From: Minisyncoccota bacterium
GTDB lineage: Bacteria; Patescibacteriota; Minisyncoccia; Phycocordibacterales; UBA9973
Direction: 5' to 3'
Assembly (NCBI GenBank): GCA_041650615.1
Contig: JBAZKU010000001.1
Location: 249,216 to 313,215, forward strand
Length of the DNA: 64,000 nt
Shown here one piece after another: positions 2,428 to 57,665 of this stretch. A program made the translations under genes and the position numbers. Position 1 is the first letter of the stretch, and every line of letters starts with the position of its first letter. The notes under the pieces were generated by a model. That model was given only the letters and a program-made list of their open reading frames with translations. It did no database searches and was not told where the DNA came from.

Positions 2428-3159
2428 ACCCCATAGGTCTTGCCTATGGGGTACACCTCTGCTATATTTATATTATGTCTATAAGAAAAGTAGATTTTTC
2501 AGTAAATGAGTATTATCATCTCTACAACCGTGGGAATAGTAAACAAATAATTTTCAAAGACGAACAAGATTATAATCACTTTATGAAGTTACTTTTTTTG
2601 TGCAATTCTCAGAAAAGTATTGTGTATAGAGATATTTCAAAAAATACTTTTGATTTTGATCGAGAAGAAACTTTAGTTCATATAGGCGCGTATTGTCTTA
2701 TGCCAAATCATTTTCACCTACTAGTTAAAGAAGAGGTGGAAAATGGGATAAGCAGATTTATGCAAAAACTCACAACCGCTTACGTAATGTATTACAATAA
2801 AAAATATAAAAGAACTGGTGCACTATTTGAAGGAAAATTTAAATCTCAACATATTAGTATTGACAGATATATGAAATATTTATTTTCATATATACATTTA
2901 AATCCTATAAAACTAATTGAATCTGGTTGGAAAGAAAAAGGAATAAAAAACACAGAAAATGCTCTCAGGTATTTAAAAGCCTATCAATACTCAAGTTATC
3001 TAGATTACTTAAAAGAAGATCGTATTAAAAGAAAAATTCTTAATAAAAAAGAATTTCCTAAATATTTTTCATCTAAAAATTCTTTTGAAAGAGAGATCTT
3101 AGATTGGCTAAAATATAAAAAACAATAAGCCTTACCCCATAGGCAAGACCTATGGGGCT
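2428..3159 (+). mobile_element. RAYT/IS200-like unit: transposase gene flanked by inverted REP-like hairpins (ccccatagg-tcttg-cctatgggg / ccccatagg-caaga-cctatgggg)
   Basis: Perfect 9-bp stems at 2430..2452 and 3135..3157. The right hairpin is the reverse complement of the left one. Confidence 0.5.
2475..3128 (+). CDS. IS200/IS605-family Y1 HUH transposase (RAYT-like)
   Basis: HuH motif in 'CLMPNHFHLLV', a Tyr-rich segment 'AYVMYYNKKYKRTGALFEGKF', and the N-terminal 'YHLYNRGN' typical of the Y1_Tnp / REP-associated tyrosine transposase fold. Flanked by inverted hairpins. Confidence 0.6.
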   Translation: MSIRKVDFSVNEYYHLYNRGNSKQIIFKDEQDYNHFMKLLFLCNSQKSIVYRDISKNTFDFDREETLVHIGAYCLMPNHFHLLVKEEVENGISRFMQKLTTAYVMYYNKKYKRTGALFEGKFKSQHISIDRYMKYLFSYIHLNPIKLIESGWKEKGIKNTENALRYLKAYQYSSYLDYLKEDRIKRKILNKKEFPKYFSSKNSFEREILDWLKYKKQ

Positions 3160-4733: not shown

Positions 4734-6035
4734 ATGAAAACAAAAAATACTAAAACTAAGACAAAAAATCTGTCATCGCCGAAAGGAATGCGGGATATTA
4801 TTAATGAAGAATATTACAACTTTCAAGGTTTTTTTGAAAAGGCGCAAGAGGTAGCCGTGTATTATGGTTTTAAGCCTATTGAGACTCCAATGTTAGAGCA
4901 TACAGAAGTCTTTACTTCAGGTATCGGCGAAGGGACAGATATAGTGGATAAAGAAATGTATACGCTTAAAACTAAAGGCGGAGACCATTTGGCGCTAAGG
5001 CCGGAACATACAGCGTCATTAATACGTTCTTATATTGAACATGGGATGCAAAATATGCCTCAACCTGTAATGTTTTATCAATATGGCCCTGCTTTTCGGC
5101 ACGACAATCCCCAGCGCGGACGCTACAGACAATTTTGGCAATTTGACTTGGATTCTTTGGGAAGCGATAAAAGTATCGTGGATGCGCTTGTAATAAAGGT
5201 GGGTATGAGTATTTTAGAAGAAGCCGGAGCTACTAATCTATCTGTGGATATTAATTCCATTGGCGACAAAGAATGCAGACATGCGTATATTAAAGAACTT
5301 ACCAGTTATTATAGAAAACATATAAATAATTTGGCCCATATTGACCGTGAACGCTTAAAAACGAATCCCCTTCGCATCTTGGATTCAAAAGAAGAAAAAA
5401 CAATGGAAGTAAATGTAAATGCGCCGGATTCCATAAGTTTTCTCTGTCCTTCTTGCAAAAAGCATTTTAAGGAAGTATTGGAATACTTGGAAGAAATGAA
5501 TATTCCCTACAATTTGAATAAAAATTTGGTGAGAGGACTTTCCTATTATACTCGCACTGTTTTTGAGGTAATTGAAGAAAAGGGCGGAGAAGATGGAACG
5601 ACATTAACCTTAGCTGGTGGCGGACGTTATGATTATCTCGCTCATCAACTCGGCAGTAAAAAAGATGTGCCGGCAGTGGGTTTTTCAATCGGAGTAGATA
5701 GAATTATTTCAGCTCCTTGGTATAAAAAACTCTGCCCTCGCATAATAAAAAAGCCAAAAATCTATTTTATTCAGTTGGGTTCTGAAGCAAAACTTAAAAG
5801 TTTGAATATAATAGAAATATTGCGCAAGGCGCATGTTCCTATTGCTCAGTCTATTTCAAAGGATAGTCTTGGCTCTCAATTAGCAATCGCTGAAAAATTA
5901 AATATCCCTTACGCGCTTATCTTTGGAGCAAAAGAAGCTATTGATAATTCGGTAATCGTGCGTGATATGTCTAATAGGTCTCAAGAAACCGTAAAATTAA
6001 ATAAACTTTTGGAATATTTAAAAGAGATCAAATAA
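4734..6035 (+). CDS. hisS: histidyl-tRNA synthetase
   Basis: LRPEHTASL, YQYGPAFRHDNPQRGRYRQFWQFD, GGGRYD class II HisRS motifs. Confidence 0.9.
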   Translation: MKTKNTKTKTKNLSSPKGMRDIINEEYYNFQGFFEKAQEVAVYYGFKPIETPMLEHTEVFTSGIGEGTDIVDKEMYTLKTKGGDHLALRPEHTASLIRSYIEHGMQNMPQPVMFYQYGPAFRHDNPQRGRYRQFWQFDLDSLGSDKSIVDALVIKVGMSILEEAGATNLSVDINSIGDKECRHAYIKELTSYYRKHINNLAHIDRERLKTNPLRILDSKEEKTMEVNVNAPDSISFLCPSCKKHFKEVLEYLEEMNIPYNLNKNLVRGLSYYTRTVFEVIEEKGGEDGTTLTLAGGGRYDYLAHQLGSKKDVPAVGFSIGVDRIISAPWYKKLCPRIIKKPKIYFIQLGSEAKLKSLNIIEILRKAHVPIAQSISKDSLGSQLAIAEKLNIPYALIFGAKEAIDNSVIVRDMSNRSQETVKLNKLLEYLKEIK

Positions 6036-6687: not shown

Positions 6688-7620
6688 ATGAATAATAAAA
6701 TAAATTTTGTATTTTGGGGAACACCGGATGTAGCATCAGAAACTCTGGAAATTCTTAAAGAAAATGGCTTTATGCCATCGCTTATTATTACTTCGCCTGA
6801 TAAACCACAAGGGCGTAAAATGGTTATAACTCCCCCGCCGGTAAAAGTTTGGGCAATTGAAAATAAGATTTCATATTTACAACCGGAGATCCTATCCGGC
6901 AAGGATTCTACTTTTATCGGGTCGCTGTCTGTGCCTACTGGCACAGCGCTGCCTCTCGGCTCGTCAGCCTGCGAGACACCCGCTAAAAGTAAATCCTTGC
7001 CGGATTTGTTTTTGGTTGTCGCCTATGGGAAAATAATTCCGGAAGATATTTTGAATATACCCAAACTAGGTTCTATAAATATTCATTATTCATTACTGCC
7101 AAAGTATCGCGGAGCTTCACCTGTGGAATCGGCTATTTTAAACGGAGATACAGAAACAGGCATTTCTATTCAAAAAATGGAATATAAAATGGACACCGGT
7201 CCGATTATTGCCCAAGAAAAAGTAGAAATAGGGCCGGACGAAAAAGCGCCTGAACTGCGCAAACGCCTAATAAAAATCGGGGGAGAACTTTTAGTAAAAA
7301 CTTTGCCGGATTTTATAGATGGAAAAACTAAATTGATTCCGCAAAGCGAGAACGAAGCCACTTATTGCAAGAAAATAAAAAAGGAAGATGGGCTTGTTGA
7401 CTTGGAGGCCTTGCCTCCAAGTGAGCTATATAACAAATTTCGCGCTTATGCCACTTGGCCCAGAACTTTTTTCTTTAAACCTGCCCGCAATGCTTCGCAT
7501 AGCGATGCAGGCGGGAATGGAAAAAGAATAATAATTACCGATGCTAAATTAGAAAATGGAGAATTTAAAATTCTAAAAATCATTCCTGAAGGAGGAAAAG
7601 AGACAAAATACGAAGGATAA
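6688..7620 (+). CDS. fmt: methionyl-tRNA formyltransferase (carries a 36-aa in-frame insertion)
   Basis: FWGTPDVA..., VVAYGKIIP, NIHYSLLPKYRGASPV, C-terminal Fmt domain. Confidence 0.9.
   Translation: MNNKINFVFWGTPDVASETLEILKENGFMPSLIITSPDKPQGRKMVITPPPVKVWAIENKISYLQPEILSGKDSTFIGSLSVPTGTALPLGSSACETPAKSKSLPDLFLVVAYGKIIPEDILNIPKLGSINIHYSLLPKYRGASPVESAILNGDTETGISIQKMEYKMDTGPIIAQEKVEIGPDEKAPELRKRLIKIGGELLVKTLPDFIDGKTKLIPQSENEATYCKKIKKEDGLVDLEALPPSELYNKFRAYATWPRTFFFKPARNASHSDAGGNGKRIIITDAKLENGEFKILKIIPEGGKETKYEG
6896..7003 (+). repeat. 108-bp GC-rich palindromic element inserted in-frame in fmt (outer stem CCGGCAAGGATT/AATCCTTGCCGG); paralogous copy in tgt
   Basis: Core gggtcgctgtct...agcgctgcctctcg...gcgagacaccc is shared with 56921..57028; both copies are exactly 108 bp and encode FIGSLS...ALPL...CETP. 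Confidence 0.6.
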
Positions 7621-24060: not shown

Positions 24061-24152
24061 AAATAAAAAAGTCCTCCGATTTAAGTCGAAGGACTTTTGC
24101 TTTTTTGACATTCCCCCTTTTAAACTGCGGGAACTTTTTCTTTTTCCGATAA
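24061..24152. repeat. 92-bp segment (3' end of response regulator gene plus terminator hairpin) identical to 25616..25707
   Basis: Direct base-by-base comparison; includes hairpin agtcctccga/tcgaaggact. Confidence 0.8.
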
Positions 24153-24521
24153 GACCCGATCAATTGTGGCTAAAAGATCAACAAGATCATACGGTTTGGT
24201 GATCATATCTCTAGCTCCTAATTTTTTTGACTCACAACAGTTTTTCAGGTCGCCAAAACCTGTTAACATAATGACTTTAATTTTAGGATTTATCAATTCT
24301 TCCTTGGAATTCTGAATAAATCTCAAAACTCCAAATCCATCAACCTTAGGCATCTTGATATCTAGTATTACCAAATCGAATGCCTCTCGTTTGAGGAAAT
24401 CAATCGCCTCTTCTCCATCGGCTGCCATTTGAACATAAAACCCCTCCGGAGAAAGTTCCGCTTCCAATATCACTCTTACATCTTCTTCATCATCCACAAC
24501 AAGAATCCTTGCGTTTTTCAT
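24120..24521 (-). CDS. single-domain response regulator (CheY-like receiver)
   Basis: VVDDEED, LVILDIKMP (phospho-acceptor Asp), IMLTG, ITKPYD. Confidence 0.8.
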   Translation of the reverse strand: MKNARILVVDDEEDVRVILEAELSPEGFYVQMAADGEEAIDFLKREAFDLVILDIKMPKVDGFGVLRFIQNSKEELINPKIKVIMLTGFGDLKNCCESKKLGARDMITKPYDLVDLLATIDRVLSEKEKVPAV

Positions 24522-24663
24522 GATTTTCTCTTCCTTTTGTTTAATTTATGAAAATAACTTTATTTTTATTCATTTTAACAACAAACAACCGCCAAGTCAA
24601 TTAACTTGTTTGGAATTGAAGAATAAAAATAACTTACTTCCACTCTTTCAAACTTAAATCCGT

Positions 24664-25521: not shown

Positions 25522-25674
25522 TTGTTCATTATAACTTTATATTTGTATTTAACAACAGCTGAGTTTTCCACTGACTCTGAATTCAGGAGAGATTCCGGTT
25601 TATATTCCGGCAGGAAAATAAAAAAGTCCTCCGATTTAAGTCGAAGGACTTTTGCTTTTTTGACATTCCCCCTT

Positions 25675-26079
25675 TTAAACTGCGGGAACTTTTTCTTTTT
25701 CCGATAAAACTCGTTCAATTGTGACCAAAAGGTCAAGGGAGTCATATGGTTTATAGAGAATCTCTGCAACCCCTAAATTTTTCAAGGTTGTTACATCTTT
25801 CTGATTAAGGCAATAATAGCTTGACAGTATGATGGCCTTAATTTTTGAGTTTTGAAATTCTGTTTTGTTATTTTGAATAAACTCCAAAACTTCAAACCCA
25901 TCAACCTTTGGTAAAAAAGCTTCCAATATAATCAGATCAAAGGTCTCTTGTTGAAGAACATTAATCGCTTCTTCCCCGTCAGCTGCCATTTGAACCTTAT
26001 ACCCCTCACGAGAGAGTAAGGCATTTAATACTACCCTTATCCCTCCTTCATCTACAATAAGAACCCTTGTATCTTTCAT
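25675..26079 (-). CDS. single-domain response-regulator paralogue with atypical active site (phospho-acceptor Asp replaced by Glu; DD pair replaced by DE)
   Basis: Aligns along its length with 24120..24521; LIILEAFLPKVDG versus LVILDIKMPKVDG; identical C-terminus EKEKVPAV. Confidence 0.7.
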   Translation of the reverse strand: MKDTRVLIVDEGGIRVVLNALLSREGYKVQMAADGEEAINVLQQETFDLIILEAFLPKVDGFEVLEFIQNNKTEFQNSKIKAIILSSYYCLNQKDVTTLKNLGVAEILYKPYDSLDLLVTIERVLSEKEKVPAV

Positions 26080-26204
26080 GATTTTTTCTTCCTTTTATTT
26101 TATTTATGAAAATAACTTAAATTTAACTTACCTTAGCAACAAAAAATAAATTAGTCAATCAGACTATTTTAGTACAGCGCGCATAGCGTTTGGTTTCAGG
26201 AATT

Positions 26205-35278: not shown

Positions 35279-35643
35279 ATACTATTATTATAGAATAATA
35301 CCAGATATAACTCAAACTAACTGGCTCCGGGGGTAGGGATATCTCCCTCGACTAAAATTTTTTCGTCAAAAAATTTTGTCTGGGCACCGACTCATGGATT
35401 TTTACTGCTGTAAAAATCACATTCCGTCGTTCGATCACCTACACGCACGACAAGCAGTTGTCGTGCTCGCCCGGAAGCATGAAACAAAAAGCCCATACGA
35501 AAGTATGAGTTTTTGTTTTTGCTCCCCTTACTGGACAAGTTCAGAACTGCAAACTGGACTAGAATTAAAAGCGATTTAGAGTTTAGTGGGATATTAGGGC
35601 TATTCCCTAAACTTTTACTTCAGAACTAATAAATAAATTATAC

Positions 35644-42908: not shown

Positions 42909-44426
42909 ATGAAAGCAATAATCGTAGCAAGAGTATCAACAGACGAACAAAAAGAGAACTCCCCAAGTGCTCAACTATTCAGAATGCAACATTATTGTGA
43001 AAATCGTGATTTTATAATTTCTAAAGAATTTAGTTTTATAGAAAGTGCTTACAAAATAAAAAGAGATGAATTTGATAACATCATTGAGTTTATTGAGGAT
43101 TGTATAAAGAGAAAAGAAAAAATAGCTGTATGTTTTGATAAAGTAGATAGATTATCAAGAAACATTTTTGATAAAAGAGTGGCTTGGTTATATGAAAAAG
43201 CAATCAATAATGAAATTGAACTTCATTTCGTATCAGATAGCCAAGTCATTAACGATAAGATGAATGCAGGCGATAAATTTGCTTTTGGAATGAAACTAGG
43301 GCTTTCTAAATACTATTCTGATGCTATTAGTGATAATGTAAAACGTGCCTTTGAGCAAAAACGAAGAAATGGCGAATGGACAGGTGCAGTTCGCTTGGGC
43401 TATCTTAATGTACCTGCTGATATAGAAAAACGATTGAGAAAAGACATAATCATAGACCCTGAACGGGGATATTTAATAACTAAAATGTTTGAAATGTATG
43501 CAACTGGTAATTATTCACTAGAAACTATAAGAAAAGAAATTACTGATTTAGGATTACGAAGTTTGAAAGAATTTAAGTTGTCAAAAAGTTGCGTAGAAAA
43601 TATACTAAAAGACCCATTTTATTGTGGAATAGCAACTTCAAAGAAATATGAGCAAACTTGGGTACATAAATATCCTCGTTTAATAACTCAAGAACTATTT
43701 GAGAGATGTAAAGAAATCAGAGAAGGTAAAAATAAAAAACGCTCTAAATTTGTTTCAAAAGAATTTATATTCAAAGGACTTCTTACCTGTAAAAATTGTG
43801 GTTGTATGTTAAGCCCTGAAATACATAAAAAGAAAAGTGGTTTGACCTATGTTTACTATTCCTGCACTAATTCTAAAGGTATATGTAAACGCCAGTATGT
43901 ACCTGAAACAGCCCTTCTTAAGCCAATTTACAAGGTTTTAGACCAGTTTGAAGGTATTACAGAAGAAGCCCAGAATACTATCGTTAAAGAGCTTAGGGAA
44001 ACTACAGAAGCAGAGGTCACCTTTCATAAAGCCCAAGTAAATCGTATTAGAGCAGAATACGACCAGTTAAAAAAGAAAGATGATAGGTTGCTTGAAATGT
44101 ACCTTGAAGAAGATAAGAGTATTACTAAGGACATCTATGACAAAAAACATCAAGAGTATCACGACAAGATACAACTTTTGGAAATTGAATTATCAGAACA
44201 TACAAATGCCGATTATGACTATCAAACCACTGTGGCTACAGTACTTTCTGTCGCTCGCAGAGTAAAGGAAATCTTTGAAAGTTCTGAACCATACGAAAAA
44301 AGAGCAATTTTGAATTATTTACTTCAGAACCCTGTTGTAAATGAGAAAAAGCTAGAGTTTACAATACGTTCTCCATTTAATTTAGTGCTTGAACTAGCTA
44401 CTAGTCCTAACTGGCTCCGGGGGTAG
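42909..44426 (+). CDS. large serine recombinase (integrase)
   Basis: N-terminal resolvase domain IIVARVSTDEQ (catalytic Ser), recombinase domain, Zn-ribbon CKNCGC...CTNSKGIC, coiled-coil; the 3' end overlaps the tRNA-Asn 3' end. Confidence 0.8.
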   Translation: MKAIIVARVSTDEQKENSPSAQLFRMQHYCENRDFIISKEFSFIESAYKIKRDEFDNIIEFIEDCIKRKEKIAVCFDKVDRLSRNIFDKRVAWLYEKAINNEIELHFVSDSQVINDKMNAGDKFAFGMKLGLSKYYSDAISDNVKRAFEQKRRNGEWTGAVRLGYLNVPADIEKRLRKDIIIDPERGYLITKMFEMYATGNYSLETIRKEITDLGLRSLKEFKLSKSCVENILKDPFYCGIATSKKYEQTWVHKYPRLITQELFERCKEIREGKNKKRSKFVSKEFIFKGLLTCKNCGCMLSPEIHKKKSGLTYVYYSCTNSKGICKRQYVPETALLKPIYKVLDQFEGITEEAQNTIVKELRETTEAEVTFHKAQVNRIRAEYDQLKKKDDRLLEMYLEEDKSITKDIYDKKHQEYHDKIQLLEIELSEHTNADYDYQTTVATVLSVARRVKEIFESSEPYEKRAILNYLLQNPVVNEKKLEFTIRSPFNLVLELATSPNWLRG

Positions 44427-44486
44427 GGATCGAACCTACGACCAATCGCTTAACAGGCGACCGCTCTACCGCTGAGCTACCCCGGA
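44412..44486 (-). tRNA. tRNA-Asn (GTT), CCA encoded
   Basis: Manual fold: acceptor TCCGGGG/CCCCGGA, D arm GCTC-AGCGGTA-GAGC, anticodon loop CTGTTAA, T arm GTAGG-TTCGATC-CCTAC. Confidence 0.8.
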
Positions 44487-56330: not shown

Positions 56331-57665
56331 TCAAAATTTGTAAAGGGTATCATGCGAAGCAAACTTAGTTAAAAATTCTTTCTTAAACTCAAAAAATTTA
56401 TCATCTAAAATTGACTGGCGAATATCATCCACCAGATGAGTGATAAAGTATAGATTATGAATTGAAGCAAGTGTTCCGGCTAACATTTCCTTGCCGTGAA
56501 AAAGATGCGCGATATAAGCTTTTGTGTAGTTCTTGCAAGAATAACATTCGCAATCCTTTTCAATTGGCGAAAAATCATTTCTGAATTTTGTATTCATAAT
56601 GCTTATTTTCCCGTTTTTGGTATAAATTGTTCCATTTCTGCCAAGTCGGGTCGGTAAAACACAATCAAAAAGATCCACTCCGTTTTCTATTCCCATAAAT
56701 AAATCTTCCGGTTCCCCTATGCCAAGCAGATGGCGAGGTTTTTCTTCCGGCAAAATTTCATTCACCCATTTCACGGCCGAAGACATATCTTCTTTGGCAA
56801 ACGAACCACCGATACCAAAGCCGTCAAAACTTCTTCCATTCACATTTATTTCCGAAATAATTTTAGCGGATTTTTTTCGTAAAGATTCCTCGCGTCCTCC
56901 TTGCACGATACCGAATAATGCCGGAGAAAAATCTCTTTTAGAGGGTGTCTCGCAGCGCGACGGCGCGAGAGGCAGCGCTCCGTCAGCAGACGGAGACAGC
57001 GACCCTATAAAAGAGGAATTTTCTCCGGCGCTAGAAAGCAGCAATTTCTGATGCTCCTTTAAACTCCTCTCCGCCCAGCGATGTGTGCGCTCCAGGGCTT
57101 CTTTCTGATATTTTAGGTCTTCGGTGGGACTGGTGCATTCATCAAAGGCAAAAATAATATCCGCGCCCAAATTGTGTTGGATTTGAATAGATTTCTCCGG
57201 AGTGATGTAATGAATGCTGCCATCTAAATGAGATTTGAAGGAAACTCCATCTTGTCCTATTTTTGCCAGTCTGGGAGCATCAGAATCATCAAATCGTTCC
57301 GGAATTAAAAGTGAAGGGTCAATTATTTTTGTAATTTTAGAAATGTCTTTTCCATAAGCAGCGCCCAAAGAAAAAACTTGAAAACCTCCGGAGTCTGTCA
57401 TCGTAGGTCCTGCCCAATTCATAAACTTACCGATACCTCCCGCGTCACGCACTATTTCATCTCCTGGTTGTAAATATAAATGATAAGTATTACCAAGTAC
57501 CACTTGCACGCCAATATCTTTTACTTGCTCTGGGTTTAAAGATTTTACCGTTGCTTTCGTCCCCACCGCCACAAAAGCCGGGGTTTTTATTTTTCCATGC
57601 GAAGTTGTTATTATTCCCACTCTTCCTAAACTATTTTTTAATTTTTTTTCAATTTTAAAATTCAT
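56331..57665 (-). CDS. tgt: queuine tRNA-ribosyltransferase (tRNA-guanine transglycosylase), with a 36-aa in-frame insertion
   Basis: GRVGIITTSHGKIKTPAF, VVLGNTYHL, DGFGIGGS, LLGIGEPEDL, Zn site CECYSC. Confidence 0.85.
   Translation of the reverse strand: MNFKIEKKLKNSLGRVGIITTSHGKIKTPAFVAVGTKATVKSLNPEQVKDIGVQVVLGNTYHLYLQPGDEIVRDAGGIGKFMNWAGPTMTDSGGFQVFSLGAAYGKDISKITKIIDPSLLIPERFDDSDAPRLAKIGQDGVSFKSHLDGSIHYITPEKSIQIQHNLGADIIFAFDECTSPTEDLKYQKEALERTHRWAERSLKEHQKLLLSSAGENSSFIGSLSPSADGALPLAPSRCETPSKRDFSPALFGIVQGGREESLRKKSAKIISEINVNGRSFDGFGIGGSFAKEDMSSAVKWVNEILPEEKPRHLLGIGEPEDLFMGIENGVDLFDCVLPTRLGRNGTIYTKNGKISIMNTKFRNDFSPIEKDCECYSCKNYTKAYIAHLFHGKEMLAGTLASIHNLYFITHLVDDIRQSILDDKFFEFKKEFLTKFASHDTLYKF
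56921..57028 (-). repeat. 108-bp GC-rich palindromic in-frame element in tgt (outer stem CCGGAGAAAAAT/ATTTTTCTCCGG), paralogue of 6896..7003
   Basis: Shared core on the coding strand: gggtcgctgtct...gagcgctgcctctcg...ctgcgagacaccc; encodes FIGSLSPSADGALPLAPSRCETPSK. Confidence 0.6.

What the first reader, a model, noticed from the sequence alone, without database searches (positions are those of the whole stretch)
6896..7003. 108-bp GC-rich palindromic element inserted in-frame into two unrelated essential genes (fmt and tgt), with compensatory stem changes
fmt (6896..7003) and tgt (56921..57028, minus strand) each contain a 108-bp (36-codon) insertion relative to canonical Fmt and Tgt proteins. 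The cores are near-identical at the DNA level: gggtcgctgtct-[hairpin]-agcgctgcctctcg(g/c)...(c/g)ctgcgagacaccc. They encode FIGSLS(V/P)..G(T/A)ALPL(G/A)(S/P)S(A/R)CETP(A/S)K.

Both copies are about 60-65% GC in a roughly 33% GC genome, and both are bounded by 12-bp inverted repeats that differ between copies but stay complementary within a copy (CCGGCAAGGATT/AATCCTTGCCGG versus CCGGAGAAAAAT/ATTTTTCTCCGG). The internal hairpin also covaries (tgtgcc-tact-ggcaca versus ctccgtc-tgct-gacggag). Covariation that preserves pairing implies selection on DNA or RNA secondary structure, not on the peptide.

Orientation and frame relative to the host ORF are the same in both genes. The closest analogy I know is the Rickettsia palindromic elements (in-frame selfish insertions in protein-coding genes). 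I am not aware of these being described for this lineage.
Basis: seen in the sequence. Interest (0 to 1): 0.85.

Follow-up and report, generated by a model that had tools for sequence, protein, structure and literature searches.

The report
In-frame palindromic mobile element in CPR genes
Two housekeeping genes of this tiny-genome (CPR/Patescibacteria) bacterium each carry, in frame, a copy of a GC-rich ~110-base palindromic mobile element that recurs at the same loops of at least 15 essential-gene sites in dozens of related genomes; it is a hitherto undescribed counterpart of the Rickettsia palindromic elements.

Summary
Window 6894-7005 (+, in fmt) and 56920-57029 (-, in tgt) are two copies of one repeat: a 63-nt GC-rich core with two internal hairpins, flanked by 23-25-nt arms that differ between copies but pair within each.

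About 80% of copies lie inside long ORFs, nearly always in one of two frame/orientation states. The same site in the same gene (tgt, fmt, tsaD, uvrD, uvrB) holds the element in either orientation, giving unrelated peptides. Insertion-free Fmt orthologues exist, so it is not a conserved protein loop.

Young intergenic copies in one genome carry 9-10-bp target duplications, so it transposes like a MITE. The stems diverge about as fast as host third codon positions yet stay 89-99.7% paired. The constant core outside the search pattern is 97-99% identical, with a caveat about how the copies were found.

Best reading: a non-autonomous palindromic transposon, tolerated in frame as a disordered surface loop. 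This is functionally like Rickettsia RPEs, in a new lineage and with a distinct architecture. Unexplained are a strand-specific wobble bias, genome-specific hairpin variants and the missing transposase.

The parts
6894..7005 (+). Copy 1: the full 112-nt palindromic element inside fmt. The core reads in the sense direction of the gene, in frame 0.
   Evidence: The arms are 25 and 24 nt and the core is 63 nt.
6894..6918 (+). Copy 1, 5' arm (ATCCGGCAAGGATTCTACTTTTATC). It has a bulged C at arm position 11, counted outward from the core.
   Evidence: The bulge in the 5' arm is shared by most copies that lie within genes.
6919..6981 (+). Copy 1, the 63-nt conserved core (GGGTCGCTGTCT, hairpin 1, AGCGCTGCCTCTCG, hairpin 2, CTGCGAGACACCC).
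   Evidence: The core is 63 nt in 109 of 116 copies.
6929..6946 (+). Copy 1, hairpin 1: a 7-bp stem of which 5 bp are hypervariable and covarying, with loop TACT.
   Evidence: Pairs 23:36 to 27:32 are 99.7% paired, with CG, GC, UA and AU swaps.
6958..6969 (+). Copy 1, hairpin 2 (GGCT-CGTC-AGCC).
   Evidence: Pairs 50:61 to 53:58 covary.
6982..7005 (+). Copy 1, 3' arm (GCTAAAAGTAAATCCTTGCCGGAT).
56920..57029 (-). Copy 2: the full 110-nt palindromic element inside tgt, in the same frame and orientation state (sense, frame 0) as copy 1.
56943..57005 (-). Copy 2, the 63-nt core. Hairpin 1 is at 56978-56995 (CTCCGTC-TGCT-GACGGAG) and hairpin 2 at 56955-56966 (GCGC-CGTC-GCGC).
6688..7620 (+). Host gene fmt (methionyl-tRNA formyltransferase). 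The element occupies residues about 70-105, between strand 62-64 and strand 107-111 of the N-terminal domain.
   Evidence: In the AlphaFold model, residues 79-101 have pLDDT below 50 on an otherwise confident fold.
56331..57665 (-). Host gene tgt (queuine tRNA-ribosyltransferase). The element occupies residues about 213-248, just before the conserved ALFGIVQGG motif.
   Evidence: The same site is occupied in 19 other genomes.

Best explanation
The two insertions are copies of a non-autonomous palindromic transposable element. It is MITE-like and behaves like the Rickettsia palindromic elements, and it is endemic to Paceibacteria/'Nomurabacteria'-type CPR bacteria.

The mobile unit is about 110-125 bp. 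It consists of a 63-nt GC-rich core with two internal hairpins, closed into a branched (three-way-junction) fold by two terminal inverted repeats of 23-31 nt (the arms).

Shown:
- It transposes, leaving 9-10-bp target-site duplications.
- It lands anywhere, but within genes it persists only where the reading frame stays open. That happens in two states, sense frame 0 and antisense frame 2, which are related by inverting the whole element in place.
- At several gene sites it is found in both orientations.
- All six frames of the core are free of stop codons.
- In the structure model of Fmt, the only host protein modelled, the inserted residues form a low-confidence loop.

Inferred:
- An unidentified transposase supplied in trans moves it.
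- The element is translated as a hydrophilic, disordered surface loop that the enzymes tolerate. Once inside an essential gene it is trapped, because only a precise in-frame deletion could remove it.
- Recombination between the arms flips it.
- Pairing of the arms and hairpins is kept by hairpin-templated correction at the DNA level, by selection for a foldable single strand needed for mobilisation, or by both.
- The near-invariant core is the part recognised by the mobilising machinery, and gene conversion between copies in a genome refreshes it.
For: Family and distribution:
- There are at least 113 true loci in 68 assemblies, nearly all labelled as CPR/Patescibacteria.
- There are none in viral contigs.

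Copies within genes:
- 90 of 116 copies lie in long ORFs in sense frame 0 (48) or antisense frame 2 (42).
- The hosts are Tgt (two sites), Fmt, TsaD, UvrD (two sites), UvrB (two sites), Def, IleRS, LeuRS, MnmA, CCA-adding enzyme, RsmA, MetK and a RecG-like helicase.

Not a protein feature:
- Both orientations occur at the same site: tgt 15 sense and 4 antisense, tsaD 8 and 11, uvrD 6 and 12, fmt 2 and 1, uvrB 1 and 1.
- Insertion-free Fmt orthologues of 267-275 aa exist.
- The two window copies share identical rare codons.
- The AlphaFold model gives pLDDT below 50 for residues 79-101.

Mobility:
- A subfamily with identical arms occurs at 10 or more places in one genome (MFVF01), mostly between genes.
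- Four of these copies have 9-10-bp direct repeats at their ends. For one of them, removing the element and one repeat restores a perfect 15-bp terminator hairpin.

Inversion of the whole unit:
- The bulged base stays in the arm 5' of the core whatever the host direction.
- The window's fmt copy and the Hainich contigs carry the element inverted at 96-98% identity, while the fmt genes overall are about 80% identical.

Structure maintenance:
- 95% of pairs are formed against 78% in shuffles, and against 35-51% when partners are slid.
- Stems are 48-76% identical between orthologous copies, against 45-56% for host third codon positions.

Conversion between copies:
- Hairpin variants are more alike within a genome than between genomes, 5.8 against 8.0 differences, with none of 5,000 permutations as low as observed (p<0.0002).
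Against: - No transposase or autonomous partner sharing the arms was found. There is none next to the young copies, and there is no half-element in the scan.
- Target duplications are visible only in four young copies of one genome, and not at the window's two copies.
- A search for the predicted empty site in metagenomes found nothing.
- The arms, which should be the transposase's recognition sites, are the variable part, and the centre is the conserved part. This is the reverse of a typical MITE.
- Between species, the fmt-specific arms are better conserved than the flanking coding sequence. Neither drift nor arm-to-arm correction alone explains that.
- Mismatches in the arms are strand-biased relative to the element, not relative to the host gene. 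A plain double-stranded DNA cut-and-paste model does not predict this.
- The copies were collected with an exact pattern covering 21 core bases. The 97-99% conservation of the rest of the core therefore applies only to copies whose core is still intact. Decayed, more AT-rich relatives exist at the fmt site.
Confidence: 0.62

Rival explanations
1. The element is a functional structured nucleic acid, either RNA or single-stranded DNA, and purifying selection keeps its branched fold. It could be an element-encoded small RNA. It could instead be a recognition module for a host or element protein, such as a recombinase or invertase, or for DNA uptake or nucleoid organisation. On this view its spread into genes is secondary.
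For: - It shows the classic signature of a structured molecule. The junction and loop nucleotides are near-invariant, at 97-99% outside the search pattern, while the helices change sequence freely and stay paired.
- The strand complementary to GGGTCGC... folds more stably in 110 of 115 copies, at -65.5 against -58.7 kcal/mol.
- That same strand carries the wobble-compatible pairs, 99 against 30, whatever the direction of the host gene.
- The element, including its fmt-specific arms, is 96-98% identical between species whose fmt genes are about 80% identical overall.
Against: - It matches no Rfam family.
- No promoter or transcript evidence is available.
- Stems evolving at a near-neutral rate with almost no G:U intermediates in hairpin 1 are unusual for selection-driven compensatory change.
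- Many lineages let the core decay at the same site.
- The conservation estimate depends on how the copies were collected, as noted above.
Confidence: 0.18
2. The element is moved as single-stranded DNA by an HUH/Y1 (IS200-like, RAYT-type) transposase, in the way REP/BIME sequences are thought to be moved, and not by a DDE enzyme.
For: - The wobble bias and the fold stability are both defined by the element's own strand, as expected if one strand's hairpin is the substrate.
- The window itself encodes a Y1_Tnp/RAYT-like protein at 2475-3128, flanked by perfect 25-nt hairpin-bearing inverted repeats.
- A second, 36-nt GC-rich palindrome in the same fmt gene was inserted with no target duplication.
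Against: - The young copies of the large element have 9-10-bp target duplications, which Y1 transposases do not make.
- The hairpins that flank the RAYT-like gene are unrelated in sequence to the element.
- At about 110 nt, and lying within genes, the element is unlike REPs of 20-40 nt that lie between genes.
- Co-occurrence of the element with the RAYT-like gene was not tested.
Confidence: 0.1
3. The hairpin is removed or skipped at the RNA level, so the enzymes never contain the extra peptide. This could happen by excision and religation, or by ribosomal bypassing as in T4 gene 60 or the mitochondrial 'byp' elements.
For: - The base of the long stem brings the two host-gene junctions together.
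- Two unrelated peptides are tolerated at the same site.
- In Fmt the element replaces a native segment.
- GC-rich palindromic inserts in AT-rich genes resemble the mitochondrial byps. That comparison rests on my own knowledge and was not tested here.
Against: - Every copy within a gene keeps an open frame, and 90 of 101 use only two of the six possible states. Neither would be needed if the element were removed.
- The measured palindrome lengths are not enriched for multiples of three, at 19 of 111. Excising the hairpin would therefore usually break the frame.
- There are no matching take-off and landing codons at the element's ends; this is from reading the two window copies only.
- No known bacterial machinery does this.
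Confidence: 0.04
4. The 36 residues are an ancient, lineage-specific protein loop conserved for its function in the protein, and the palindromic DNA is incidental.
For: The loop is present at the same site in many orthologues.
Against: - The same DNA occurs in about 15 unrelated proteins and between genes.
- It occurs inverted at the same site, giving an unrelated peptide.
- Close orthologues lack it.
- Synonymous positions are identical across copies.
- It is modelled as disordered.
Confidence: 0.01

Closest known systems
Rickettsia palindromic elements (RPE; Ogata et al. 2000, as summarised in PMC2229807 and PMC10969869)
   Same: - They are small (105-146 bp) palindromic repeats that fold into a long stem-loop with terminal inverted repeats of about 12 bp.
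- They are inserted in frame in many conserved housekeeping genes of a bacterium with a reduced genome.
- They are translated and tolerated.
- They also occur between genes, and no transposase is known for them.
   Different: - The lineage is unrelated (CPR/Patescibacteria, not Rickettsia). Sequence similarity to RPE families was not tested here.
- The element is GC-rich in an AT-rich genome.
- The invariant part is a 63-nt branched core, and the arms are the variable part.
- The same gene site is found with the element in both orientations.
- Several related families share the same hot-spot loops.
- Target duplications of 9-10 bp are visible here, whereas the RPE entry in Table 1 of PMC2229807 marks target duplication as unknown.
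Bacterial MITEs that can fuse in frame to ORFs (Correia/NEMIS, ERIC, Coxiella QMITE; PMC2229807, PMC5896051, PMC10969869)
   Same: They are non-autonomous, about 100-200 bp, with terminal inverted repeats, target-site duplications, many dispersed copies and stable stem-loop transcripts. Some copies lie in frame within genes.
   Different: - In those families the copies within genes are a minority; here about 80% of the copies found lie within genes.
- In typical MITEs the terminal repeats are the conserved part.
- No cognate insertion sequence was identified here.
REP/BIME elements and their RAYT (Y1/HUH) transposases (PMC3733652)
   Same: - They are GC-rich palindromes acted on as a single-strand hairpin.
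- A RAYT-like gene is present in the window.
- CGTC is the loop of hairpin 2, and CGTC is also the tag of one REP superfamily.
   Different: - REPs are 20-40 nt, lie between genes and make no target duplication.
- The hairpins flanking the window's RAYT-like gene are unrelated to the element.
Mobile GC clusters and 'byp' elements of yeast mitochondria, and T4 gene 60 bypassing (from my own knowledge; not checked in the library)
   Same: They are short GC-rich palindromic inserts that sit inside AT-rich protein-coding genes.
   Different: Those elements are skipped by the ribosome and need not keep the frame. The elements here always keep an open frame.

Membership tests
MITE (bacterial miniature inverted-repeat transposable element) | Small size (about 100-300 bp) with no coding capacity for a transposase. 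| tested here: met
   The element is 110-125 nt, made of a 63-nt core plus arms.
MITE (bacterial miniature inverted-repeat transposable element) | Terminal inverted repeats. | tested here: met
   The arms are 23-31 nt and 89-95% complementary. Read side by side, arms at different sites share a loose consensus, roughly CCGGrrAAAATTC-TCTTTT.
MITE (bacterial miniature inverted-repeat transposable element) | Target-site duplication flanking the element. | tested here: met
   Direct repeats of 9-10 bp flank four young copies (two in L093, one each in L025 and L076). One reconstructed empty site is a perfect terminator hairpin. No duplication is visible at the two window copies or at other old copies within genes.
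MITE (bacterial miniature inverted-repeat transposable element) | Many dispersed copies per genome. | tested here: met
   There are 2 copies in the 64-kb window and at least 10 loci in assembly MFVF01.
MITE (bacterial miniature inverted-repeat transposable element) | A cognate autonomous insertion sequence with the same ends. | tested here: inconclusive
   None was seen in the 8-kb windows around the copies. Whole genomes could not be scanned again.
Rickettsia palindromic elements (RPE) | Membership of the RPE sequence families, which are restricted to Rickettsia. | tested here: not met
   All true hits are in CPR/Patescibacteria assemblies. Sequence comparison with RPE consensus sequences was not run.
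Rickettsia palindromic elements (RPE) | In-frame insertion into conserved protein-coding genes, tolerated as extra peptide. | tested here: met
   90 of 116 copies lie in long open frames at about 15 gene sites. Translation itself was not testable.
REP/BIME (mobilised by RAYT transposases) | Imperfect palindromes of 20-40 nt, lying between genes, with a GTAG or CGTC tag at one end and no target duplication. | tested here: not met
   The element is about 110 nt, lies mostly within genes, and shows 9-10-bp duplications.
REP/BIME (mobilised by RAYT transposases) | An associated RAYT gene flanked by the same palindromes. | tested here: not met
   The window's Y1_Tnp gene at 2475-3128 is flanked by unrelated hairpins of sequence CCCCATAGG..CCTATGGGG.
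Curated RNA families (Rfam 15) | A match to a family covariance model at its gathering score. | tested here: not met
   There is no hit at gathering score. At an E-value up to 10 only a far sub-threshold mir-576 match appears, 26.6 bits against a gathering score of 99, and it scores on both strands.
Introns or translational bypass elements | Removal from the mRNA or skipping by the ribosome, so that the frame and stop codons inside the element are unconstrained. | tested here: not met
   The frame is always open and is restricted to two states. Palindrome length is a multiple of three in only 19 of 111 copies. Removal itself is not testable with these tools.

The most novel reading that the evidence does not exclude
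The element may not be merely selfish DNA. It could be a strand-specific structured module, single-stranded DNA or its own transcript, that is kept by purifying selection across CPR lineages. Its in-place inversion could then act as a switch between two alternative surface loops in core enzymes such as Tgt, Fmt, TsaD, UvrD and UvrB, or mark the chromosome for a conserved CPR process such as recombination, DNA uptake or replication.

The evidence that leaves this open:
- The junction is invariant while the helices covary.
- The element is more conserved than the host gene as a whole, even when it is inverted.
- The wobble bias follows the element's strand, not the host gene's.
- The hairpin 1 variants tend to be specific to a genome.
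Probability: 0.12. Interest if true: 0.85.

Novelty: new variant of a known kind. Interest (0 to 1): 0.66.

Why it matters
The Rickettsia palindromic elements have been the standard example of selfish DNA living inside essential proteins. This finding shows the same lifestyle, on a comparable or larger scale, in the Candidate Phyla Radiation.

Practical consequences:
- These inserts lengthen and break up protein alignments of CPR marker genes, which affects phylogenomics, annotation and structure prediction.
- They give a ready-made set of natural loop-insertion sites in about 15 core enzymes.

Conceptual interest:
- The family combines an invariant branched core with arms that covary freely.
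- It inverts in place.
- Several families re-use the same hot-spot loops.
- Its folding is biased towards one strand.

Together these make it a tractable case for asking how palindromes are maintained, by selection or by templated repair, and what mobilises MITEs in genomes that have almost no recognisable transposases.

Tried and rejected
- **Rfam.** Neither the gathering-score scan nor the permissive scan gave a real match.
- **Viral contigs.** The core pattern has no hits there.
- **Peptide searches to count host proteins.** The word-indexed search with a chimeric consensus peptide found only 8 candidates. The profile search of 1.84 billion cluster representatives found only 18 weak hits. 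Short queries and 50%-identity representatives make both uninformative.
- **Empty-site search.** The metagenome scan for the predicted empty site of the L093 insertion found nothing.
- **Recent inversion in the window's own species.** The second metagenome scan found only inverted copies in a species about 80% identical.
- **Transposase next to the young copies.** Pfam scans of 47 neighbouring ORFs gave only housekeeping families among the 25 families shown, and a lone arm-like match in L036 was a chance hit.
- **Orientation relative to strand composition or replication.** GC skew simply follows the direction of the host gene, with no overall bias, 59 against 52.
- **Hammerhead or other ribozyme.** The CUGACGA in the bottom strand lies inside hairpin 2, no GAA segment follows, and there is no Rfam support, so this was rejected.
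- **Copies inside RNA genes, as seen for RPEs.** None were found among 18 loci with intergenic copies. One copy lies about 300 nt upstream of a 23S rRNA gene.
- **Ungapped arm extension.** This method was replaced by a gapped alignment, because most copies within genes have a one-base bulge in the 5' arm.
- **One Pfam call** failed because I guessed the coordinates.
Full report
**Observation**

The two regions are as described. Window 6896-7003 lies in fmt (ORF 6688-7620, + strand) and 56921-57028 lies in tgt (ORF 56331-57665, - strand).
- They share three exact blocks: GGGTCGCTGTCT, AGCGCTGCCTCTCG and CTGCGAGACACCC. These occur nowhere else in the 64-kb window and are not expected by chance.
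- A covariance model built later also finds only these two copies in the window.
- Each region folds into a long stem closing a branched centre with two hairpins. The folds are far more stable than shuffles, with z-scores of -9.1 and -6.6.
- With a gapped comparison of the arms, the palindromes are 6894-7005 (112 nt) and 56920-57029 (110 nt).
- GC is 57-58% over the element and 68-73% over the 63-nt core, against 34.8% for the window.
- 15 of the 19 residues identical between the two peptides use the same codon, including codons used for only 6-13% of their amino acid in this genome. The similarity is therefore at the DNA level.

**A large family**

- Four were chance hits in GC-rich genomes of other phyla (L015, L059, L091, L094).
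- The rest are 113 loci from 68 assemblies, nearly all labelled Nomurabacteria, Paceibacterota, Kaiserbacteria, Vogelbacteria, Parcubacteria, Patescibacteria or 'uncultured Saccharibacteria'.
- The source contig itself carries a gene named as belonging to a Candidatus Paceibacterota bacterium.
- The core is exactly 63 nt in 109 of 116 full copies.
- A few copies carry a small extra palindrome nested in hairpin 2.
- There are no copies in viral contigs and no Rfam match.
- Searches of the held literature by topic and by the sequence itself found no description.

**Where the copies sit**

Ninety of 116 copies lie in long open frames, in just two states.
- With the core in the sense direction at codon phase 0 (48 copies), the peptide is GSLS.....ALPLG.SACETP.
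- With the core antisense at phase 2 (42 copies), the peptide is GVSQADGPRGSA.....DSDP.
- Inverting a whole element in place converts one state into the other. The reason is that the arm 5' of the core carries one extra, bulged base.

The hosts are Tgt (two sites), Fmt, TsaD, UvrD (two sites), UvrB (two sites), Def, IleRS, LeuRS, MnmA, CCA-adding enzyme, RsmA, MetK and a RecG-like helicase.

The same site carries both orientations in different genomes: tgt 15 sense and 4 antisense, tsaD 8 and 11, uvrD 6 and 12, fmt 2 and 1, uvrB 1 and 1. The bulge always stays with the core's 5' side, so the whole unit is what inverts.

**Not a protein feature**

Among 120 close Fmt homologues, the loop between QPE and VVAYG takes several forms:
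- this element in the sense orientation;
- this element in the antisense orientation;
- several related but more AT-rich inserts;
- no insert at all, in proteins of 267-275 aa.

At the DNA level the AT-rich inserts are still palindromes. At least two of them (L123, L124) keep the branched fold, the stretch CGCAGGCTGACGAGCCGAG and a hairpin with an AGCA loop. They are therefore decayed or sister families at the same hot spot.

Against solved structures, Fmt residues 74-104 face 9-13 residues and Tgt residues 203-245 face 10. The net gain is thus about 22-25 aa in Fmt and about 33 aa in Tgt. In Fmt the element has displaced most of the native segment.

An AlphaFold model of the window's Fmt has pTM 0.79. 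The insert at residues 79-101 has pLDDT below 50, and so does a second small insert at 271-275.

**Structure and rates**

The analysis used 107 distinct copies of 83 nt each.
- The proposed structure is 95% paired, against 78% in column shuffles and 35-51% when partners are slid.
- 19 of 33 pairs change on both sides.
- The five variable pairs of hairpin 1 are 99.7% paired, swapping among CG, GC, UA and AU with almost no wobble intermediates.

Between orthologous copies at the tgt, tsaD and uvrD sites:
- the arms are 50-70% identical and the hairpin 1 stem 48-76%;
- this is about the same as host third codon positions, at 45-56%;
- the constant parts of the core that were not in the search pattern are 97-99% identical.

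One caveat applies to that last figure. The copies were selected for an intact first half of the core, so it describes intact copies only.

The fmt comparison involved L021 and three Hainich groundwater contigs (L126-L128) retrieved with an arm-plus-core pattern. The element, inverted in the three Hainich contigs, is 96-98% identical to the window's over 112 nt. The fmt genes are about 80% identical overall (83% for L021), and the 30-nt windows next to the element are 83-90% identical.

**Mobility**

One assembly (MFVF01) has at least ten loci with a subfamily whose arms are identical. These copies lie mostly between genes or at gene ends.

Four of these copies are flanked by direct repeats of 9-10 bp just outside a 5-nt terminal extension of the form CA..A/G.

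For one copy, deleting the element and one repeat restores a perfect 15-bp terminator hairpin. This is the mark of a staggered-cut transposition.

No transposase lies nearby, and no solitary arm was found.

**Unexplained features**

1. Mismatches in the arms are strand-biased.
   - On the strand that reads GGGTCGC, A:C-type mismatches outnumber G:T-type 99 to 30.
   - The bias holds in sense copies (45:8), antisense copies (27:17) and intergenic copies (27:5).
   - The complementary strand folds more stably in 110 of 115 copies.
   - The strand whose fold is favoured is therefore set by the element, not by the host mRNA. In both window copies it is the strand antisense to the gene.
2. Hairpin variants are more alike within a genome than between genomes (none of 5,000 permutations as low as observed, p<0.0002). 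This holds even at old shared sites. It suggests conversion between copies, or re-colonisation of the same sites.
3. Element orientation shows no overall relation to strand composition.

**Interpretation**

The best-supported reading is a non-autonomous palindromic transposon that survives inside essential genes as an in-frame, disordered loop. That is the lifestyle of the Rickettsia palindromic elements (PMC2229807, PMC10969869).
- Maintenance of pairing at near-neutral stem rates without wobble intermediates fits hairpin-templated correction at least as well as selection.
- The invariance of the core calls for a sequence-specific partner, homogenisation between copies, or both.
- The better conservation of the locus-specific arms remains unexplained.
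- The rivals are a functional structured RNA or single-stranded DNA, mobilisation as single-stranded DNA by a Y1/RAYT enzyme, and removal at the RNA level. The report weighs each separately. The ancient-loop reading is refuted.

**Comparison and novelty**

The element works like an RPE and meets the structural definition of a MITE. It is not a member of the RPE families, because the lineage differs, and it is not a REP. It differs from known cases in several ways:
- the centre is conserved while the arms vary;
- it inverts in place;
- several families share the same hot-spot loops;
- its folding is biased towards one strand.

I rate it a new variant of a known kind.

**Caveats**
- All related sequences come from metagenome-assembled genomes, and some taxon labels are automatic.
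- Copy numbers per genome are lower bounds.
- Translation, transcription and inversion dynamics could not be tested here.

Noticed in passing
window 7480-7515 (+), inside fmt; also L129:1020-1150, L006, L013, L021, L065, L068, and nested copies in L014, L031, L036 and L074: A second, smaller GC-rich palindrome family of 36 nt (CCTGCCCGCAATGCTTCGCATAGCGATGCAGGCGGG) is inserted in frame in the C-terminal domain of fmt, where it encodes PARNASHSDAGG.
- The gene of the 83%-identical protein P0003 shows the exact empty site, with no target duplication.
- Members of the family occur in other loci.
- Members also lie nested inside hairpin 2 of the large element.
   Followed up: partly
window 2429-3157 (ORF 2475-3128 on the + strand; inverted repeats 2429-2453 and 3133-3157): A 217-aa IS200-like Y1 transposase is flanked by perfect 25-nt inverted repeats, each of which contains a 9-bp hairpin (CCCCATAGG..CCTATGGGG), an arrangement like a REPtron.
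- Pfam matches Y1_Tnp at E=1e-8.
- The best NCBIfam match is REP-associated tyrosine transposase, below that family's cutoff.
- The hairpins are unrelated in sequence to the finding.
   Followed up: partly
L122-L125 and proteins P0007-P0120 (the Fmt loop between QPE and VVAYG): This one loop of Fmt is a hot spot.
- It is occupied in different lineages by at least four other palindromic insert types. Their peptides include RTLGRSDGDGQRKFSAENF.., KSIAQADEPSIAIRQQADMCG.., TTSSQADEPRKAIFQQENMRE.. and LSRGSHGDLAGIGEGRREEKF...
- It is also occupied by apparent chimeras, such as P0012.
- In other lineages it holds no insert at all.
   Followed up: partly
window 57270-57359 (- strand; tgt residues 103-132): Tgt carries a further insertion of about 30 aa (AYGKDISKITKIIDPSLLIPERFDDSDAPR) that has no counterpart in solved Tgt structures. 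The GC-island scan did not flag it as GC-rich, and whether it is palindromic was not tested.
   Followed up: no
window 35317-35355, compared with the tRNA gene at 44415-44486: This is a 39-nt partial copy, 82% identical, of one end of a tRNA gene located 9 kb away. It could be the scar of an attachment site for an integrated element.
   Followed up: no
L041:4466-7449 and L041:5832-5905: A tRNA-like match at 62.6 bits lies inside a 23S rRNA gene of a CPR assembly. A copy of the large palindromic element sits about 300 nt upstream of that 23S gene.
   Followed up: no
L012:4318-4400 and 4823-4905; L020 and L083 (two copies each in uvrD): Single genes can hold two copies at different sites. Examples are tgt, at the usual site and again next to the zinc-binding CxC motif, and uvrD, at the STFHSLG site and the ILYRANFQS site.
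   Followed up: partly
window 24061-24601 compared with 25616-26159: Tandem duplicated coding segments lie about 1.56 kb apart and are 70-86% identical. They look like adjacent paralogous genes.
   Followed up: no
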